Shown here piece by piece: positions 2,945-57,767 of a DNA stretch of 64,000 nucleotides. A program made the translations under genes and the position numbers. Origin of the DNA: a virus (Duplodnaviria; Caudoviricetes); the IMG/VR virus record IMGVR_UViG_3300028888_000002; one strand, 5' to 3'. The notes beneath the pieces were generated by a model. The model saw only the letters and a program-made list of their open reading frames with translations. It had not been told where the DNA came from and made no database searches. The first letter of the stretch is position 1. Each line of letters starts with the position of its first letter.

Positions 2945-3034
2945 GGAATCCTCGGTTGAAGTGGTTGTCTTTCCTTTACGCCCTAAATATAACAAAATAC
3001 CTAGTCGTTGTCAACAGGTATTTTAAAAATTTTT
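2945..3034 (-). promoter_or_regulatory. early promoter cassette copy 1
   Basis: TTGACA(3014-3009)-17bp-TATATT(2991-2986); AT-rich UP tract; AATACCT..AGGTATT inverted repeat; leader ACAACCACTTCAACCGAGGA. Confidence 0.85.
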
Positions 3035-6035: not shown

Positions 6036-6116
6036 ATCCTCGGTTGAAGTGGTTGTTTCTTCTACCTTAAATATAACAAATTACCTAGTGGCTGTCAATA
6101 GGAAAATGAAAAATTA
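6036..6116 (-). promoter_or_regulatory. early promoter cassette copy 2
   Basis: TTGACA(6098-6093)-17bp-TATATT(6075-6070); same leader ending ACCGAGGA. Confidence 0.85.
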
Positions 6117-7409: not shown

Positions 7410-8035
7410 TACTTACCCCTATTTTGTTGAATTGTTTTGAGTTTTCCTAGCAGGTCCACGACTTGTTCCCTGTTAGGCGTATTGGCTAACATAGCTTCCA
7501 GGTTCTTTCGCTGTTGGTCGTGAAGCGTGTAGCCCGTAGCGTCCAAACCTTTGGCGGTATCTACGGTTTTAGCTTCGGGCTTCGGCTGTTCCTTTTCGGC
7601 TTCGTCCTTTGGCTTGTAAGTGACCCGTGCCATAGCGTGAATGTAAACCGTTTCACCATTCTTGTGAGCCTTCTTCGCTTCGTCTTCGGATAGCACGATA
7701 CACTTGCCATACTTGCCGACCTTGTAAAGAACCTGGCGTGGAACGTCCAGGTAGGTCGGGTAATACTTTCGGGGCAGGTATAGTTCAAGCAGGAACATTA
7801 TTCCGCTATATGCTCCCGCAAGCCCGAAGGCAAGCATTCCCTTGAACGGACTAATACCTAGCACAGCCAGGAACCTTGTAGGGTCCGTAAACCCATACAC
7901 GATAAACGCAACTACATACAGCAGCGTTAGGACACGGAACACGGACGTTCCCCTGTAAAGTCCGTTGCTCTTGCAGATTTCAGCGACGAAGACAATGAGC
8001 CACGCCACGATAACGAAAGTGAATCCTACTACCAT
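7409..8035 (-). CDS. membrane protein, hypothetical
   Basis: Three N-terminal hydrophobic segments; same overall layout as 6289..7143. Confidence 0.65.
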   Translation of the reverse strand: MVVGFTFVIVAWLIVFVAEICKSNGLYRGTSVFRVLTLLYVVAFIVYGFTDPTRFLAVLGISPFKGMLAFGLAGAYSGIMFLLELYLPRKYYPTYLDVPRQVLYKVGKYGKCIVLSEDEAKKAHKNGETVYIHAMARVTYKPKDEAEKEQPKPEAKTVDTAKGLDATGYTLHDQQRKNLEAMLANTPNREQVVDLLGKLKTIQQNRGK

Positions 8036-13621: not shown

Positions 13622-13710
13622 GCTATCCTCGGTTAAAGTGGTTGTTTCTTTACACCCTAAATATAACAATTTACCTAGTCCCTGTCAATAGGTAAACTGA
13701 AAAATTTTGA
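13622..13710 (-). promoter_or_regulatory. early promoter cassette copy 4
   Basis: TTGACA(13688-13683)-17bp-TATATT(13665-13660); TTTACCTA-N11-TAGGTAAA inverted repeat. Confidence 0.85.
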
Positions 13711-13750
13711 AAATAAAAATGCCCCGCAGGTCGTGAAATCCTGCGGGGCA
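13711..13750 (-). terminator. intrinsic terminator
   Basis: TGCCCCGCAGG..CCTGCGGGGCA hairpin followed by TTTTTATTTT on the minus strand. Confidence 0.8.
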
Positions 13751-20277: not shown

Positions 20278-20283
20278 TGTTAT

Positions 20284-20370
20284 ACCTCGGTGGTTGTGGG
20301 TGGTTGTTTTCCTTACACCTTAAATATAACAATTTACCAGGTAGCTGTCAATAGGAAAATTAAAATTTTT
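20284..20370 (-). promoter_or_regulatory. early promoter cassette copy 5
   Basis: TTGACA(20351-20346)-17bp-TATATT(20328-20323); leader ACAACCAC..ACCGAGG. Confidence 0.8.
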
Positions 20371-20371
20371 C

Positions 20372-20409
20372 AATAAAAAGCGGGCGGGTCGTTGCAATCA
20401 ACCCGCCCT
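20372..20409 (-). terminator. intrinsic terminator closing the ncRNA candidate
   Basis: GGGCGGGT..ACCCGCCC hairpin followed by GCTTTTTATT. Confidence 0.8.
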
Positions 20410-20811
20410 ACCACAATCGCCACTCTACTCTTTTCGTTGGGACCTACGTCAGTCATAGGTCGGTCCCGTAGGGAACTTCCCTCGCAAGAGTCCTACAAGT
20501 CGCTTTATTAGCCACGGTTGCGGTTCCCGTGAAGCCCCTGGGTCCGACAGGGCTTTATCGGAGCGTTTTTAGTTAGGATTACGCACAACCCCCCAGGTCC
20601 GTTTAGCCACCTGTTTGGCGATAGCAGCACCCGCTAGAATCGGACTAGCAGCTTTATGGGGGAACAACCTACTACGGGCTTCGGTTTCTATTACCCCATT
20701 CAGCAGCACACACCCCTTGCAAGGGATATGCCATTTATGGTGGAAGCACCAACTTCTCGGCAGGCATAACGTTTGCAACCGCTACGCAAGCCTATCCACC
20801 CAAGTGCTGTA
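20375..20811 (-). ncRNA. candidate structured non-coding RNA (~400-430 nt), family unknown
   Basis: No credible CDS; own promoter (20817-20833) and terminator; at least 8 hairpins, several with G-U pairs that form only on the minus strand. Confidence 0.6.
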
Positions 20812-20816
20812 ATTCT

Positions 20817-20833
20817 AATATAGCAAGATAGCG
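20817..20833 (-). promoter_or_regulatory. compact phage promoter motif CGCTA-N5-CTATATW (one of 14 copies)
   Basis: CGCTATCTTGCTATATT; other copies at 16546, 21752, 24816, 27111, 31451, 32667, 34843, 38795, 42293, 42785, 57774, 61391, 63656. Confidence 0.75.
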
Positions 20834-21517
20834 TCAAACTCCGATATTCCCGAACAGGTAGAACGGTCCTGTAAGTTGTCGGAGGCGTTGGTTCGCCACG
20901 TCGTAGTATTCCTTGCACAGTTCGGTCCCGATAAACTTTCGGGCTTCCAACACGGCTGCTTCTGCCGTGGTCCCGCTTCCAATGCAGGGGTCAAACACTA
21001 TATCCCCGTGGTTGGAACTAGCCCGTATGAGCCGTCTAAACAGGTCCAGGGGCTTTTCCGTCGGGTGTCGCTTGCTAGACCCGCAGGGGTGTCGCCATAC
21101 GGGGGATTGGCAGAACTCATTGAACGTTGCGTTGGACTTACGCATAAACACGCAGCATTCCACGGACGATAGCCAAAGGTGCTGCCCGTTCATAGGCGAT
21201 GGGTTCGTCTTTTCCCAAATACAGAGCCTTGTAGAAAGCCCCTTGTCAACTCCCGCCTTACGCAGCATAGACACCTGTTCTGTTCCACAGAAAATATAAA
21301 TGCTCCCCTTACAGATACGGATTACCTCGTCCATAAACTTGTCAAGCGGGAACGTTAGAACGTCGGCAGCTTCCTTGTTAATGTGACGCAGCCCGCCTTC
21401 TTCACGGTCGGAACATTCGTCGTAGGGAATATCCGTCAAGACCATATCCACGCAGTTGTCTTCTAGCCTTGCCATATATTCCAGGCAATCCATATTATAG
21501 AGTTTGTTCAATTCCAC
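20834..21517 (-). CDS. DNA N6-adenine/N4-cytosine methyltransferase, beta class (MTase 1)
   Basis: DCLE, TDIPY (motif IV), HPTEKP, DPCIGSGTT (motif I after IV). Confidence 0.9.
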   Translation of the reverse strand: MELNKLYNMDCLEYMARLEDNCVDMVLTDIPYDECSDREEGGLRHINKEAADVLTFPLDKFMDEVIRICKGSIYIFCGTEQVSMLRKAGVDKGLSTRLCIWEKTNPSPMNGQHLWLSSVECCVFMRKSNATFNEFCQSPVWRHPCGSSKRHPTEKPLDLFRRLIRASSNHGDIVFDPCIGSGTTAEAAVLEARKFIGTELCKEYYDVANQRLRQLTGPFYLFGNIGV

Positions 21518-27127: not shown

Positions 27128-27910
27128 TCAAATTCCGATATTGCCGTAAATGTAGAACGGTCCCGTCAAGTCCCGCAGACGCTTGTTTGCCACTTCGCAG
27201 TATTCGGTATTTGTTTCAAATCCGATAAATTTGCGGTTTTCCATAACCGCAGCGACGGCAGTAGTCCCGCTACCCATACAGTTATCCAGGACCACTTCGC
27301 CAGGATTCGTGTAGGTTCTCACCAGGTATCGGATTAGGTCAACGGGCTTTTCCGTCGGGTGCAATTTGTTGGCGTGGACGGGCGTAAAGCTAATGATAGA
27401 TACGGGGTGTTTGTCCGTATAGACATTCTGCTGTTTAGCCATTGTATTCTTATGCAGCAGCCCGCAGGTGTTAAGCCCCCCGCCATTTCGCACGGGAACG
27501 TCCCGTAGGGTCTTTTGGGGATAATACCGCATAGAGTGACCGTTGTTGGTGAAACAAGCACTGCTCTTGCTGAATACGCTAATCAATTCGTGGATTCTAC
27601 CGCATTGGTAGTTCATTAGCTGAAAGTTGCTAGGCTTTTCCTTGTTCCAAACCCAATCGTAACGATACATAGCCACGTTGCTCGCACGTAGCAGGCTGCT
27701 GAATGGTTCGGAACCGAACAGGACAATAGCCCCATCTTCACGGATAACCCGCTTATACTGTTCCCACAGCGGTTCAAACGGGATAACAGAATCCCACTTG
27801 CAGGCGGTAGTCCCGTAAGGCAAATCGCAGATTATACAGTCAACGGAGCCGTCGGGGATTTCTTTCATACCCTCCAAACAGTCCATATTGTAAATGCGGT
27901 TCAAATCCAT
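27128..27910 (-). CDS. DNA N6-adenine/N4-cytosine methyltransferase, beta class (MTase 2)
   Basis: DCLEGM, CDLPYG, HPTEKP, DNCMGSGTT. Confidence 0.92.
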   Translation of the reverse strand: MDLNRIYNMDCLEGMKEIPDGSVDCIICDLPYGTTACKWDSVIPFEPLWEQYKRVIREDGAIVLFGSEPFSSLLRASNVAMYRYDWVWNKEKPSNFQLMNYQCGRIHELISVFSKSSACFTNNGHSMRYYPQKTLRDVPVRNGGGLNTCGLLHKNTMAKQQNVYTDKHPVSIISFTPVHANKLHPTEKPVDLIRYLVRTYTNPGEVVLDNCMGSGTTAVAAVMENRKFIGFETNTEYCEVANKRLRDLTGPFYIYGNIGI

Positions 27911-27913
27911 ACG

Positions 27914-28726
27914 CTATACTCCAATGTTTCCGTAGATATAGAACGGACCCGTCAAATCCCGCAGACGCTTGTTCGCCTTGTCAAAGTAATCCTTGTCGGT
28001 TTCAAACCCGATAAACTTACGGTTCTCTAAAACTGCTGCAACAGCAGTCGTCCCGCTACCCATACAGTTATCCAAAATGGTATCACCTGGATTTGAGTAG
28101 GTGCGGACAAGATAACGGATTAGCTCCACAGGTTTCTGTGTCGGGTGGAAGCGTTGGTCCAGGTCGCTCTTGTATTCCTTTGAGTAACTTTGGCAGTGCG
28201 GGATTTTCGCACATACTACGCTAATCGGATAGCGGGTTCCGTCTTCCTGCGGACGGGTCCTGTGCATAGACCCATAGATATTGTTCCCGATAAATTCATT
28301 GTCCTTAAAGGTCTTTCGCTGCGTGAGAAATTCCTTTTTATCCACAAGCCATTTCTGCGGGTTGAACGTAGGCTTCCCCGATTTGGAAAACACAATAATG
28401 TTTTCGTGAAGTTTAAGGTGCTTACTATCCTTGCTGAAACCCGAAGCAGGTTTGTTTTTGAGCCAACACAGTTCTTCCCTAAATTGGGAAATGTTGCTGC
28501 TAATGAGCATACTTGTAAACGGCTGCGAGCCGAACAAAATAATCGGGGCGGTATCTTTACAGATACGGTGGTATTGCTCCCACAGCGGTTCAAACGGAAT
28601 AACAGAATCCCAGGCACAAGAGGTCGTGCCATAAGGTAAATCACAAATGACACAATCCACCGTTCCGTCGGGAATTTCTTTCATTCCAACCAGGCAGTCT
28701 TCGTTATAAATTCTGTTCAGTTCCAT
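27914..28726 (-). CDS. DNA N6-adenine/N4-cytosine methyltransferase, beta class (MTase 3)
   Basis: Start MELNRIY; CDLPYG, HPTQKP, DNCMGSGTT. Confidence 0.92.
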   Translation of the reverse strand: MELNRIYNEDCLVGMKEIPDGTVDCVICDLPYGTTSCAWDSVIPFEPLWEQYHRICKDTAPIILFGSQPFTSMLISSNISQFREELCWLKNKPASGFSKDSKHLKLHENIIVFSKSGKPTFNPQKWLVDKKEFLTQRKTFKDNEFIGNNIYGSMHRTRPQEDGTRYPISVVCAKIPHCQSYSKEYKSDLDQRFHPTQKPVELIRYLVRTYSNPGDTILDNCMGSGTTAVAAVLENRKFIGFETDKDYFDKANKRLRDLTGPFYIYGNIGV

Positions 28727-28727
28727 A

Positions 28728-31412
28728 TCAATGTGCAGCCTCAAACTTCGCCTGCCAATTTTCGGGCATACCCTCGGTCCGCAAGGCTCCCACTTCTGTC
28801 ATTTTAGCCCAGGACCCGTCAACGTAAGACGCATCGGCTTCAATGACAAGCGGAACGCAAATCCACGGAAATTCTTCGCTTACACGCTTCACACCGTTGC
28901 CATAGACAATCTTCGCCACCTTGTCTTCTTCGCCCTCTTTAACGAGAGCAATAATAGCGTCGTGAATTTGTCCGATAATGCAGGAAAGCAAGCCCTGGGA
29001 CTTGAAGTCCTGCAAGTCGTAGGTCAATGCTCGCAGCAAGATATGGAACGCAGACCCTTGAATGCAGCAGTTCGTAGCCTGGGTGTAGCCCATAGGTCCC
29101 CAACAGCGGAAACCCGTGTAGGACTGCACATAGCCCATCTTTTGATAGCGGTCCCATTCGGTCCTACGCCACGCATTATAGACCTTGAAGCGTTGGTTCC
29201 AAAATATATCGTCGCCTTTCTTGACGTGTGCTTCCCACTTTTCGTAGGTCGTAATCTTGTGGTCCTTTGCCAAATGTTCCTTCGTGTAGGCAGGCATATT
29301 GTTCCACATATTTCGGGCACACGACTTGTAGGACGCACCGTAGAACGACGAGAACACATAGCCCGATTTGATAGACGAGCGTTCTTCCTTTGTAAGTTCT
29401 TCGGGCGTTCGGATATACATATCGCAAGCAGTATCACGGTGCATATCCGAAGCGGGGTTCTGCAAGTAGTGAATCATCTGCGGGTCGTGGTGATAGCTTG
29501 CGGACACCATAACTTCCAGGGACTTGTAGTCCATTTCCATAAAGCGGTAGCCCTTTGGAGCCACGAACAACGTTCGCAGGATTTTCTTCATTTCCTTATC
29601 ACGCTTCGGAATGTTTTGAAAGTTCGGGCTGTCAGCCGACGAACGGTAGGTTCGGGGACCCGCATCGTCTTCACCGCCCGCACCCGTTGACAGGTTAAAG
29701 AACGGACGGATTAGGTAGGCTTGCTTTTCTTCGTCCCATACGGCTTCACGTCTGTAGCCATCCAGGAAGTCCATAATCTTTGCCCAACGACGCATTCCCA
29801 AAATGGACTTGCAGAACGGGGTTCCCAACTTTTCCAGGGTGTCGCCCGTAGCGTCTTCCTTACCCGAAGGCGGTTTCAGCTTGCAAATCTTGTAAAGGAC
29901 TTCGGCAATTTGTTTGTTAGAGAGCGGGTTGAAAGTTTCGCCAGGGTGCAGCTTGCACCACTGCTTCGCTTCGTCGGACGCTTTGACGGCTTCTTCGGAT
30001 TCCTTGAACTTGTCTTCAAGTTCCTTTTGCAAGTCGTTAATCCTGCCATAGTCAATCGGCAAACCCTCGGACTGCACACGGGCGAGAGCGTCCATACCTT
30101 TCATAAAGAAGCGGAACGACTTTTCAAGACCAACCATCTGTGCGGACTGAATGTCACGCAGCGGGAGCGTATAAATGGAGTCAAGACCGCAATAGTAGAT
30201 AATGTCGCCTTTGGGGACACCCACGCCCTTTTTGAGCAGGTTAAAGGCGTTGCAGCTCTTTGTGTCTTCCCCGTCCATAATCGTAGAAATGAAATGGTCC
30301 GCTTTGTTGTCGTAGCCGATAACGCCCAATTCACAGTAGGTGTGGAATTTCAGCCCAACCTTTTGGGAGTTGTCTAGGACGTGGGCACCCAGGCAAGTGT
30401 CCCAGGACCAATTATCAATCCAATCTGTGCGGGAGTTATGCAGACCCGCCCTAAACCTGGTCCAACAGGCTTCATAGTCAGCCTTGTGTGCAACCAACCC
30501 TATTTTCTTGTGGTGCGTGAGTTTATACCAGGCATTCACCAGGCGTTCGTTGTCACCGTCCCACCAAATACCGATAGCGTGATACTCACCGTCCTTACGA
30601 TAGCCGACGGACGCAGCCTTGATTTCGTGACCTGCACGGTGGGGTTTCAAGCCCGTGGTTTCGTAATCAATGGAAACGTCGTGATAGCCTTCGGGAGCCT
30701 TGTCAAGTTGGTCTGTTTCAGCCCATTCAATGATTTCTTCAATCCAATCGGCTGCGGTGTCTGCATCGCCTGTGGTGCGAACGTCCGTCGGTATTTTCGG
30801 CAGCGGGGTATCTTTTATTTGATAGGCTAGACGGATATGCTGCGAGAAATACATATACGGGCAACCGTCGTCACGCTGCCAGGTCAAAAATTCGGGCGAG
30901 TAGGTCGGGCAAATCCAACAGTTGTAGAAGCGGTCGGGAATGCGTTTACCGTAAAGGTCCGACGGCTTCGTGTTGCCGATACGTCCGCTCATACGGTCCC
31001 AAATAAGTGCCTGGATAGCTGCGGGACCCATAGGAATGATTACGTTCGGCTTCAATTCGTTAATGAGCCTGTTCAAGCGTTCCTTGCAACAGTCGGGCTT
31101 CGGGTCCTTGTCGTTTTGACACGGGCACGGGATTACATAACCAATCCAGGCGGATTCCAGGAAATCCCTGGGCAGTCCACGCCTACCCTGCAAGTCCCAA
31201 AGATAATCATACATTTTATGTAGGAACACCGTGTCGTGGTCGTTGCCTTCCTTTCCACGGGGGTGGTCGCACAGGAACAGAACCTTGTCCTTGCCCTTAC
31301 CCGCAAACGGTAAATCCTTGCCCGATTGGTCTAATCCGCAGGCTAGACAGCCTGTAAGTTTCGGCTTCGCTGACATTGCTTGAATGGCAGCGGGAATTTT
31401 GAAAAAGCCCAT
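28728..31412 (-). CDS. polA: family A DNA polymerase with N-terminal UDG-family-4-like domain and 3'-5' exonuclease
   Basis: CLAC..CC UDG-like N-terminus; DYETTG exo I; RSSADSPNFQNIP; motif A DYKSLE; motif B RSSIKSGYVFSSFYG; motif C IHDA. Confidence 0.92.
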   Translation of the reverse strand: MGFFKIPAAIQAMSAKPKLTGCLACGLDQSGKDLPFAGKGKDKVLFLCDHPRGKEGNDHDTVFLHKMYDYLWDLQGRRGLPRDFLESAWIGYVIPCPCQNDKDPKPDCCKERLNRLINELKPNVIIPMGPAAIQALIWDRMSGRIGNTKPSDLYGKRIPDRFYNCWICPTYSPEFLTWQRDDGCPYMYFSQHIRLAYQIKDTPLPKIPTDVRTTGDADTAADWIEEIIEWAETDQLDKAPEGYHDVSIDYETTGLKPHRAGHEIKAASVGYRKDGEYHAIGIWWDGDNERLVNAWYKLTHHKKIGLVAHKADYEACWTRFRAGLHNSRTDWIDNWSWDTCLGAHVLDNSQKVGLKFHTYCELGVIGYDNKADHFISTIMDGEDTKSCNAFNLLKKGVGVPKGDIIYYCGLDSIYTLPLRDIQSAQMVGLEKSFRFFMKGMDALARVQSEGLPIDYGRINDLQKELEDKFKESEEAVKASDEAKQWCKLHPGETFNPLSNKQIAEVLYKICKLKPPSGKEDATGDTLEKLGTPFCKSILGMRRWAKIMDFLDGYRREAVWDEEKQAYLIRPFFNLSTGAGGEDDAGPRTYRSSADSPNFQNIPKRDKEMKKILRTLFVAPKGYRFMEMDYKSLEVMVSASYHHDPQMIHYLQNPASDMHRDTACDMYIRTPEELTKEERSSIKSGYVFSSFYGASYKSCARNMWNNMPAYTKEHLAKDHKITTYEKWEAHVKKGDDIFWNQRFKVYNAWRRTEWDRYQKMGYVQSYTGFRCWGPMGYTQATNCCIQGSAFHILLRALTYDLQDFKSQGLLSCIIGQIHDAIIALVKEGEEDKVAKIVYGNGVKRVSEEFPWICVPLVIEADASYVDGSWAKMTEVGALRTEGMPENWQAKFEAAH

Positions 31413-44873: not shown

Positions 44874-44960
44874 GGAAGCCTCGGTTAAAGTGGTTGTCTT
44901 TCCTTTACACCCTAAATATAACAAAATACCTGTGTGGTGTCAACAGGTATTGTTAAAAAT
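44874..44960 (-). promoter_or_regulatory. early promoter cassette copy 6
   Basis: TTGACA(44943-44938)-17bp-TATATT(44920-44915); AATACCTG-N11-CAGGTATT. Confidence 0.85.
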
Positions 44961-56918: not shown

Positions 56919-57767
56919 TTAAACTCCAATGTTGCCGTAAATGTAGAACGGACCCGTGAGTGCTTTCAAGCGGGCGTTCGCTTTTTCATAGTAGGTCTTG
57001 TCCGTTTCAAAACCTATAAACTTTCGCTTTTCCATAACCGCTGCGATAGCGGTTGTCCCGCTACCCATACAGTTGTCCAGGATTACTTCGCCTGGATTAG
57101 TGAACGTCCGTATAAGGTATCGGAGCAGTTCAACGGGCTTCTGCGTCGGGTGCAGGACCGTGGATTCGTGTTCACGCTGAATAGCGATAATGCTTCGGGG
57201 CAGCTTCTTACCGACGGGCACGGTCGCTTCAACACGCTTAACGCTATCGTATGTCCTGCCCTCGTAATCACGCCCGAAGTCCTTTTTGGGCGGGTCGCTC
57301 AAATTCAAATGTGCCCCGTAGCAGTTGTTGGTCTGCTTATGAGGACCGCTTCCACGGGAGTGGTTAATCGGACCGTCTTCATACTGCGGGTTGTAGGTCG
57401 GCAGGGACTTGTAGAACACGGCAATGTCTTCGTGGCAACGCATAGGCATTCGGTTGGCATTGAGAAAGCCCGTCACCCTGCACTTGTCCCATACCAGGTT
57501 GTAACGCCACAGCTTTTCGTTTGAGAGCATAAGTTTGGCGGTAAACATTCCCTGGCAAAACAACAGGATAGCCCCATTATCCTTGATTACACGTTCATAC
57601 TGTGCCCACAGCGGTTTAAAAGGAATAATCCTATCCCATTGGGCGTTCGGGTTATTCTTATGCAGGACTTCATAGGGCAAGTCACAAATAATAGCGTCAA
57701 TGCTGCCGTCGGGGATTTCTTTCATACCCTCAAGGCAGTCCATATTGTAAATTCGGTTTAGGTCCAT
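56919..57767 (-). CDS. DNA N6-adenine/N4-cytosine methyltransferase, beta class (MTase 4)
   Basis: DCLEGM, CDLPY, HPTQKP, DNCMGSGTT. Confidence 0.92.
   Translation of the reverse strand: MDLNRIYNMDCLEGMKEIPDGSIDAIICDLPYEVLHKNNPNAQWDRIIPFKPLWAQYERVIKDNGAILLFCQGMFTAKLMLSNEKLWRYNLVWDKCRVTGFLNANRMPMRCHEDIAVFYKSLPTYNPQYEDGPINHSRGSGPHKQTNNCYGAHLNLSDPPKKDFGRDYEGRTYDSVKRVEATVPVGKKLPRSIIAIQREHESTVLHPTQKPVELLRYLIRTFTNPGEVILDNCMGSGTTAIAAVMEKRKFIGFETDKTYYEKANARLKALTGPFYIYGNIGV

What the first reader, a model, noticed from the sequence alone, without database searches (positions are those of the whole stretch)
20375..20833. Stand-alone ~400-nt structured ncRNA candidate with its own promoter and terminator
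Seen: this is the only long ORF-poor gap in an otherwise gene-dense window. It is bounded by a CGCTA-N5-CTATATT promoter (20817-20833) and a strong terminator (20372-20409). Minus-strand helices: CAGCAC...GTGCTG enclosing AGGC..GCCT, TGGTG-CTTC-CACCA and CATATCCCT-TGCA-AGGGGTGTG (G-U pairs); then ATGGGG..CCCCAT; CTGCTAG-TCCGATT-CTAGCGG; AAGCCCTG-TCGGACC-CAGGGGCTT; CACGG..CCGTG; GTAGG..CCTAC; GACCTATG-ACTGA-CGTAGGTC. Loops TCCGA and TCGGA are complementary, suggesting a kissing loop or pseudoknot. It does not look like tRNA, tmRNA, RNase P or a CRISPR array. Inference: a phage middle-phase RNA of unknown class, such as a scaffold, defence decoy or ribozyme.
Basis: partly seen in the sequence, partly recalled or inferred. 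Interest (0 to 1): 0.75.

Follow-up and report, generated by a model that had tools for sequence, protein, structure and literature searches.

The report
Giant tRNA-shaped RNA in rumen phages
The gap holds two separable, conserved and apparently transcribed phage RNAs that match no catalogued family: a 184-base RNA shaped like an oversized transfer RNA that probably cannot read codons, also found in two other rumen phage groups, and a shorter folded RNA next to the terminator.

Summary
The gap is a real structured-RNA locus, but it is a small operon, not one RNA. RNA-A (20808-20625) is an enlarged cloverleaf: 8-bp acceptor plus 4-bp T-arm, a 6-bp D-like stem, two long hairpins each capped by an invariant palindromic UUGCAA loop (the Cys anticodon-loop hexamer), and a near-invariant 36-nt core in the variable arm. 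Six lineages (54-76% identical) in three rumen phage groups keep the fold; 23 of 40 pairs change on both sides. One homolog, absent from the training set, scored 113 bits. RNA-BC ends in a covarying three-way junction (module C). Relatives separate the two RNAs by a tRNA-Met or a 950-bp endonuclease-like gene, or carry either alone. Rumen metatranscriptome contigs cover the locus, in one run at depth 80 against 2-18 on flanking genes (strand not shown). No Rfam family or cultured phage matches. Best guess at function, untested: a processed, non-decoding tRNA mimic acting as decoy or self-pairing scaffold. Host unknown. The scan noted this same stretch once before, and other tRNA-like phage RNA arrays on other DNA, but no look-alike sequence.

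The parts
20817..20833 (-). Phage promoter motif CGCTA-N5-CTATATT; predicted start about 20810-20808
   Evidence: kept upstream of RNA-A in most ~215-kb relatives. Start site inferred from spacing.
20625..20808 (-). RNA-A, 184 nt enlarged cloverleaf (position 1 = 20808, discriminator = 20625, no encoded CCA)
   Evidence: Alignments A1, A6; model R1 finds L065 and L121.
20801..20808 (-). Acceptor-like stem, 5' strand (pairs with 20633-20626; 8 bp)
   Evidence: 4 of 8 pairs change on both sides across six lineages.
20739..20800 (-). D-like arm: 6-bp stem (20800-20795 with 20744-20739) carrying an inserted hairpin 20792-20759 with first UUGCAA loop
   Evidence: 5 of 6 stem pairs change on both sides; loop hexamer invariant.
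20708..20731 (-). Anticodon-position arm, 9-bp stem, 6-8 nt loop with second invariant UUGCAA
20660..20695 (-). Near-invariant 36-nt core in the variable arm; inner 4-bp helix covaries; two 3-bp pseudoknots possible but invariant, so unproven
20634..20648 (-). T-arm, 4-bp stem and 7-nt T-loop
   Evidence: 2 of 4 pairs change on both sides; canonical T-loop in L024, L065, L121; Rfam tmRNA T-arm fragment aligns in L121 at chance level.
20619..20624 (-). Linker: insertion site of tRNA-Met (L003, L036, L037, L043) or of a 290-aa DUF559-like endonuclease gene (L039, L073)
20513..20618 (-). Region B: conserved in the close clade, candidate string of small pseudoknots; the 20561-20534 part is optional
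   Evidence: Pairs are mostly invariant, so structure is compatible but not proven.
20419..20503 (-). Module C: long helix with invariant GUAG bulge and G-A opposition, topped by a three-way junction
   Evidence: 17 of 25 pairs change on both sides, 91% cells paired; occurs without RNA-A in L005, L006, L007, L057, L080, L092-L107.
20372..20408 (-). Intrinsic terminator (10-bp stem, T-run)
   Evidence: compensatory change in stem; RNA contigs stop at 20402-20403.
20323..20351 (-). Sigma70-type promoter of the next gene; marks the downstream boundary, not part of the RNAs
   Evidence: 11 of 12 consensus match.

Best explanation
The phage promoter drives one ~430-nt precursor that holds two RNAs. 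SHOWN: RNA-A folds as an enlarged cloverleaf with a conserved 12-bp acceptor+T branch (8/4 register); RNA-A and RNA-BC are separable units; the locus is present in RNA libraries. INFERRED: host tRNA-maturation enzymes recognise the 12-bp branch and T-loop and release RNA-A as a stable ~184-nt species, leaving RNA-BC. INFERRED: RNA-A does not decode, because its anticodon-position arm is 9 bp with a 6-8 nt loop and its D and variable arms are hugely extended; the two UUGCAA loops (Cys anticodon-loop hexamer, self-complementary) pair with each other or between molecules, and the invariant core binds a partner. Most likely job: an accessory tRNA mimic that titrates or blocks a host tRNA-directed factor (anticodon nuclease or other tRNA-sensing defence, or a tRNA enzyme) during infection. 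My odds: fold and modularity about 0.9, processing about 0.7, decoy role about 0.4.
For: Covariation: 24 of 57 pairs with double changes, 97.5% cells paired against about 40% for slid controls; 23 of 40 in six lineages of 54-76% identity. Out-of-sample homolog L121, 112.8 bits, E 7e-27. RNA-A alone in a 53-kb and a 135-kb phage, both times close to a second enlarged tRNA-like RNA whose anticodon-position loop is complementary to its variable-arm loop. tRNA-Met or an endonuclease-like gene in the linker. RNA contigs 20402-20728 at depth 80 against 2-18 on flanks (X3), 20403-20582 as the only piece in a size-fractionated library (X6), 20594-20798 (X2). Patchy presence: absent from complete relatives G003 and G004, as accessory counter-defence genes often are (own knowledge). 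Phage tRNA variants counter anticodon nucleases (PMC11455837). tRNA-like modules of Y RNA are cut by RNase P and receive CCA (PMC4201824).
Against: No partner, host or phenotype was identified. Contigs give neither strand nor ends, and two of three (X3, X2) span the A/B junction, so processing is not shown; the raw-read run held no reads. T-loops deviate from consensus in three of six lineages. The UUGCAA loops never vary, so their pairing has no covariation support. Published phage counter-defence by tRNA works by replacing the cut tRNA, not by decoy.
Confidence: 0.42

Rival explanations
1. RNA-A is a self-assembling structural RNA: the two palindromic loops form symmetric intermolecular kisses that build dimers, rings or cages, as in OLE, ROOL and GOLLD; the tRNA frame serves only processing and stability.
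For: Two invariant self-complementary loops on long variable stems (duplex -6.1 kcal/mol). An intramolecular kiss alone would be free to drift to non-palindromic partners, as in the neighbouring RNA of L065/L121. Symmetric palindromic kisses bridge chains in OLE, GOLLD and ROOL, which also sit near phage tRNAs; GOLLD linkers sometimes hold tRNAs (PMC12286853).
Against: No palindrome-to-palindrome switch seen in six lineages; invariance equally fits protein recognition of a Cys anticodon loop. RNA-A is far smaller than ROOL (581 nt average) or GOLLD.
Confidence: 0.25
2. The invariant 36-nt core of RNA-A, or module C, is a ribozyme or ligand-binding domain carried on a tRNA frame or trailer (for example self-cleavage that matures tRNA ends, as theta ribozymes do).
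For: The core is far more conserved in sequence than the stems and may be doubly pseudoknotted. Module C follows tRNA-Met directly in L006. Theta ribozymes sit at phage tRNA 3' ends in gut phages (PMC10879173).
Against: No Rfam ribozyme match. My HDV-like descriptor found nothing in six of seven sequences and an unconserved hit in one; no hammerhead core (descriptor not validated on a positive control). RNA contigs run intact across the core and module C.
Confidence: 0.12
3. RNA-A is a functional non-canonical tRNA-Cys (allo-tRNA or selC*-like, 8/4 fold) that is charged and decodes.
For: 8/4 branch, long D-like stem, long variable arm and GCA in the anticodon-position loop recall selC* tRNA-Cys and allo-tRNAs, some of which occur in phages and rumen bacteria (PMC5389517).
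Against: Loop is 6-8 nt, not a fixed 7; stem 9 bp; discriminator G, C or A, never the U73 that CysRS needs; 184 nt; no Rfam or ARAGORN tRNA call.
Confidence: 0.05
4. The whole ~430-nt transcript is one GOLLD-like RNA with a 5' domain, a variable linker that may hold a tRNA, and a 3' pseudoknotted domain that fold together.
For: A, B and C are adjacent in four lineages of the ~215-kb clade; contigs span the junction; the window's T-loop deviates from consensus in the direction that pairs with the region B loop.
Against: A occurs without B/C in two other phage groups, C without A in at least three lineages, and a 950-bp gene with its own promoter can sit between them.
Confidence: 0.12
5. Decayed tRNA array with no function.
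For: The locus is a hot spot of gain and loss, and a degenerate tRNA-Met lies in a comparable position of a more distant relative (L008).
Against: Compensatory changes in every major helix, invariant loops and core over 54% identity and three phage groups.
Confidence: 0.02

Closest known systems
GOLLD and ROOL RNAs (PMC12286853, PMC5737381)
   Same: Phage-encoded ornate RNAs of unknown function near tRNA genes; tRNA sometimes in the linker; palindromic kissing loops; ROOL first found in rumen.
   Different: No Rfam match; 184 and ~215 nt modules rather than 580-800 nt; the 5' module is itself a cloverleaf and travels alone.
allo-tRNAs and selC* tRNA-Cys with 8/4 fold; polycistrons of irregular tRNAs (PMC5389517, PMC7609411)
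   Same: 12-bp branch in 8/4 register, long D-stem and variable arm, GCA in the anticodon-position loop, polycistronic irregular tRNA context.
   Different: About twice the size, hairpin inserted in the D-loop, no fixed 7-nt anticodon loop, no U73, conserved 36-nt core in the variable arm, no selB*/cysS* context seen.
Bacterial Y RNA YrlA (PMC4201824)
   Same: Non-decoding tRNA mimic with T-arm and acceptor-like stem, processed from polycistrons with tRNA, found in phages.
   Different: No Rfam match, no Ro60/TROVE gene in five phage records, 5' and 3' ends form the acceptor stem rather than a separate Ro-binding stem.
Phage T4 RNAC and RNAD (PMC3014915, PMC9697503) with the free-standing homing endonuclease SegB in the tRNA region
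   Same: Stable small RNAs of unknown function co-located with phage tRNAs, and a free-standing endonuclease gene in the cluster.
   Different: No sequence match to any cultured phage; different size; structural likeness to RNAC/RNAD not tested.
tmRNA
   Same: tRNA-like acceptor and T-arm closing a larger RNA; neighbouring string of candidate pseudoknots.
   Different: No G3-U70 alanine identity, no conserved tag ORF, pseudoknots lie outside the acceptor stem, ARAGORN and Rfam negative.

Membership tests
Canonical tRNA (RF00005) | Covariance-model or ARAGORN call | tested here: not met
Canonical tRNA (RF00005) | 12-bp acceptor+T branch with 7-nt T-loop | tested here: met
   8+4 bp in six lineages, first pair mismatched in L121.
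Canonical tRNA (RF00005) | 5-bp anticodon stem with 7-nt loop | tested here: not met
   9-bp stem, 6-8 nt loop.
allo-tRNA / selC* tRNA-Cys | 8/4 or 9/3 branch | tested here: met
   definition in PMC5389517.
allo-tRNA / selC* tRNA-Cys | U73 discriminator with GCA/UCA anticodon in a normal loop | tested here: not met
   Position 73 is G, G, C, G, C, A in six lineages.
allo-tRNA / selC* tRNA-Cys | Aminoacylation and decoding | not testable with these tools
   Needs in vitro charging.
tmRNA | G3-U70 pair and tag reading frame | tested here: not met
   Third pair is C-G in all lineages; ORF not conserved; ARAGORN negative.
Y RNA (YrlA) | Rfam model match and adjacent Ro60/TROVE gene | tested here: not met
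   (control rang in Deinococcus). A host-encoded Ro60 could not be checked.
GOLLD / ROOL | Match to the family covariance models; length over 500 nt | tested here: not met
GOLLD / ROOL | Phage tRNA-island context | tested here: met
GOLLD / ROOL | Homo-oligomer through intermolecular kissing loops | not testable with these tools
   Palindromic loops are invariant; no covariation signal.
Theta / HDV-like ribozyme | Nested double pseudoknot with catalytic C, G1 within 5 nt of a tRNA 3' end | tested here: inconclusive
   No Rfam hit; home-made descriptor negative in six of seven sequences but not validated on a positive control.
Hammerhead ribozyme, RNase P RNA, group II intron domain V | Conserved core motifs and Rfam match | tested here: not met
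   a loose domain V pattern matched only the window and lies in the segment deleted in L037.

The most novel reading that the evidence does not exclude
RNA-A is a tRNA-Cys-derived RNA whose D, anticodon and variable arms have expanded into two palindromic assembly loops and a doubly pseudoknotted active core, and which self-assembles into a multimeric tRNA mimic that neutralises a host tRNA-directed defence. With the two other enlarged tRNAs of the same phages it would show how ornate phage RNAs grow out of tRNA genes by arm expansion.
Probability: 0.2. Interest if true: 0.85.

Novelty: new variant of a known kind. Interest (0 to 1): 0.66.

Why it matters
Phage tRNA islands hold several RNAs whose jobs are unknown (T4 RNAC/RNAD, GOLLD, ROOL). 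RNA-A is small enough to make and probe, has a covariation-backed fold, and gives sharp tests: maturation by tRNA enzymes, loop-loop assembly, and protection against tRNA-cutting defences. It also shows a class of tRNA-shaped genes that ARAGORN and Rfam miss entirely, shared among rumen phages of 53, 135 and ~215 kb.

Tried and rejected
Rfam at gathering and permissive thresholds: only chance hits. BLAST against 50,697 cultured phage records: nothing; the RecA-like protein has only ~30% matches there. No host: the window's genome is not held; one copy lies in a MAG labelled Clostridia bacterium, which may be a mis-binned phage contig; model R1 found nothing in 150 other genomes of that phylum; protein look-ups gave no usable host names. 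Raw-read run X21 had no reads, so strand and ends are untested; small-share runs X13, X14 and zero-share runs were not used. Many pattern-scan hits were chance matches in coding DNA. The 69-aa ORF was rejected. A third UUGCAA in the terminator loop is not conserved in the wider clade, so it was dropped as a kiss partner. Region B pseudoknots could not be proven. The supplementary models of a viral candidate-RNA catalogue (PMC10690425) are not held, so a fragment may be listed there unnamed. No protein fold or complex jobs were run: not relevant.

Full report
Setting. The window is part of a large uncultivated phage: almost all genes lie on the minus strand and include RecA-, gp32- and clamp-loader-like proteins and DNA methyltransferases. 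Close relatives are rumen or gut viral contigs of up to 215-230 kb. The host was not identified.

Observation. The gap 20278-20833 is the longest clean non-coding stretch, though two shorter ones exist. The promoter motif at 20833-20817 occurs exactly three times (0.00 expected) and with up to two mismatches in front of about a dozen minus-strand genes, so it is a phage promoter class. The terminator at 20408-20372 is the strongest in 13 kb, and a separate sigma70-type promoter at 20351-20323 serves the next gene. The minus strand folds at z = -2.94; the opposite strand of the 5' half gives -0.87. Rfam gives no match at gathering or permissive thresholds, and no cultured phage matches. The 69-aa ORF has a poor codon score and is 5-15 codons long in homologs.

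Homologs show two RNAs. Loci fetched through neighbouring proteins and motif scans gave four full-length lineages in the ~215-kb clade (window type, L003/L036, L024, L037/L038). Between the 5' ~190 nt and the rest, L003, L036, L037 and L043 carry a complete tRNA-Met, and L039 and L073 carry a 950-bp insert with a DUF559-like endonuclease gene and its own promoter. The 5' unit (RNA-A) also occurs without the 3' unit in a complete 53-kb phage, between two other enlarged tRNA-like genes, and in a complete 135-kb phage whose RecA is 50% identical. The 3' module C occurs without RNA-A in L005, L006, L007, L057, L080 and L092-L107. Some relatives have neither (L004/G003). The locus is therefore a modular small-RNA operon, not one indivisible RNA.

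RNA-A. The consensus fold is a cloverleaf with expanded arms. The 5' strand 20808-20801 pairs with 20633-20626 (8 bp) and stacks on a 4-bp T-arm with a 7-nt loop; the loop is the canonical T-loop in L024, L065 and L121 and deviates in the other three. The branch is 12 bp in the 8/4 register described for allo-tRNAs (PMC5389517). A 6-bp D-like stem carries an inserted 12-13 bp hairpin; a 9-bp arm sits in the anticodon position; both end in the invariant hexamer UUGCAA, which is self-complementary and equals the Cys anticodon-loop sequence (own knowledge). The variable arm is a covarying helix topped by a 36-nt near-invariant core with one covarying 4-bp helix and two possible 3-bp pseudoknots that never vary and so are unproven. 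On alignment A1, 97.5% of cells pair, 24 of 57 pairs change on both sides, and slid controls fall to about 40%; A1 holds many near-identical rows, so the cleaner count is 23 of 40 pairs over six lineages of 54-76% identity. L121 was not in the training set and scored 112.8 bits with new pair types, which is the strongest independent test. There is no encoded CCA and the discriminator varies.

RNA-BC. Module C is well supported: 17 of 25 pairs change on both sides in 11 distinct sequences. It is a long helix with an invariant GUAG bulge, topped by a three-way junction, always directly before the terminator. Its function is open; a 3'-stabilising or protein-binding role is my guess.

Expression. 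Eleven runs on record as RNA hold part of the stretch, mostly ruminant gut metatranscriptomes. In X3 one contig covers 20402-20728 at depth 80 while flanking genes have 2-18 and the bin upstream of the start has none; in the size-fractionated X6 the only piece is 20403-20582; X2 has 20594-20798 at depth 12, similar to its flanks. Runs were found with this stretch, contigs show no strand, and DNA carry-over is possible, so this supports but does not prove a discrete abundant RNA. Two contigs cross the A/B junction, so the precursor exists; processing is not shown.

The window's T-loop can pair with the region B loop (-7.4 kcal/mol), but this drops to -3.8 and -1.5 in other lineages, the partner is deleted in one, a local partner lies just upstream of that loop, and the two RNAs occur apart. 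It is not a conserved feature, though not excluded for this lineage.

Mechanism. Best reading (0.42): a precursor cut by host tRNA enzymes into a stable, non-decoding tRNA mimic plus a trailer RNA; the mimic pairs its two loops, presents the invariant core, and titrates a host tRNA-directed factor. The fold and modularity are shown; processing, loop pairing and the target are inferred. Support for a counter-defence role is circumstantial: tRNA-island context, patchy presence, a companion RNA with a sealed anticodon loop in two phages, and the known contest over tRNA (PMC11455837), where the published mechanism is replacement rather than decoy. Rivals: self-assembling scaffold like OLE/ROOL/GOLLD (0.25; PMC12286853), ribozyme or aptamer core (0.12), one GOLLD-like RNA (0.12), decoding tRNA-Cys (0.05), relic (0.02).

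Membership and novelty. It fails the defining tests for tRNA, selC* tRNA-Cys, tmRNA, Y RNA (no TROVE gene in five records), GOLLD and ROOL, while working like a tRNA mimic of a phage tRNA island. Literature searches found no description; a catalogue of viral candidate RNAs of 29-151 nt could hold a fragment and could not be checked. The scan's notes list this same stretch once, with a tRNA-like elbow (my reading was recorded before seeing it), and analogous arrays in other phages without sequence likeness. Verdict: a real, previously uncatalogued RNA family of a known general kind; interest 0.66.

Noticed in passing
L065:1579-1693 minus; L135:1501-1617 plus (G012 110430-110546): A second enlarged tRNA-like RNA (~115 nt) with normal acceptor, D and T arms; its anticodon-position loop is perfectly complementary (7 bp) to its variable-arm loop. 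Conserved in two different phages, both times near RNA-A; pattern not found in five records of the ~215-kb clade.
   Followed up: partly
L065:1248-1368 minus: tRNA-Leu(UAA)-like gene with a hairpin inserted in the D-loop that carries the palindrome GGCGCC; missed by Rfam.
   Followed up: no
L039:1772-2644; L073:5831-6703: AT-rich 290-aa zinc-ribbon/DUF559-like endonuclease gene with its own promoter in place of tRNA-Met between RNA-A and region B; L038-type alleles keep its 3' flank and look like deletion products.
   Followed up: partly
L080:2690-2950: A different ~260-nt hairpin-rich RNA candidate between a sigma70-type promoter and module C; no Rfam hit.
   Followed up: no
L092-L098, about 7430-7540: Alternative upstream modules in front of module C in the 80%-identity clade, with compensatory changes in one hairpin.
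   Followed up: no
L008:12645-12711: tRNA-Met-like gene lacking most of the T-arm, in a comparable position of a more distant relative.
   Followed up: no
window 2961-3033, 6049-6115, 13638-13720, 20323-20351 region, 44890-44960: A repeated ~70-80 nt early-promoter element similar to the one just downstream of the terminator.
   Followed up: no
window 20834-21517, 27128-27910, 27914-28744, 56919-57767: Four related N6/N4 DNA methyltransferase genes; their number and order vary between relatives.
   Followed up: no
L052:2506-2751; L004:7500-7745; L007:4266-4511: Phage-encoded translation initiation factor IF-1-like gene next to the other tRNA-Met in relatives, absent at that place in the window.
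   Followed up: partly
L007:8747-11155: RecA-like gene of 802 aa against 438 aa in the window, probably intein-containing (a relative carries intein-type Pfam hits).
   Followed up: no
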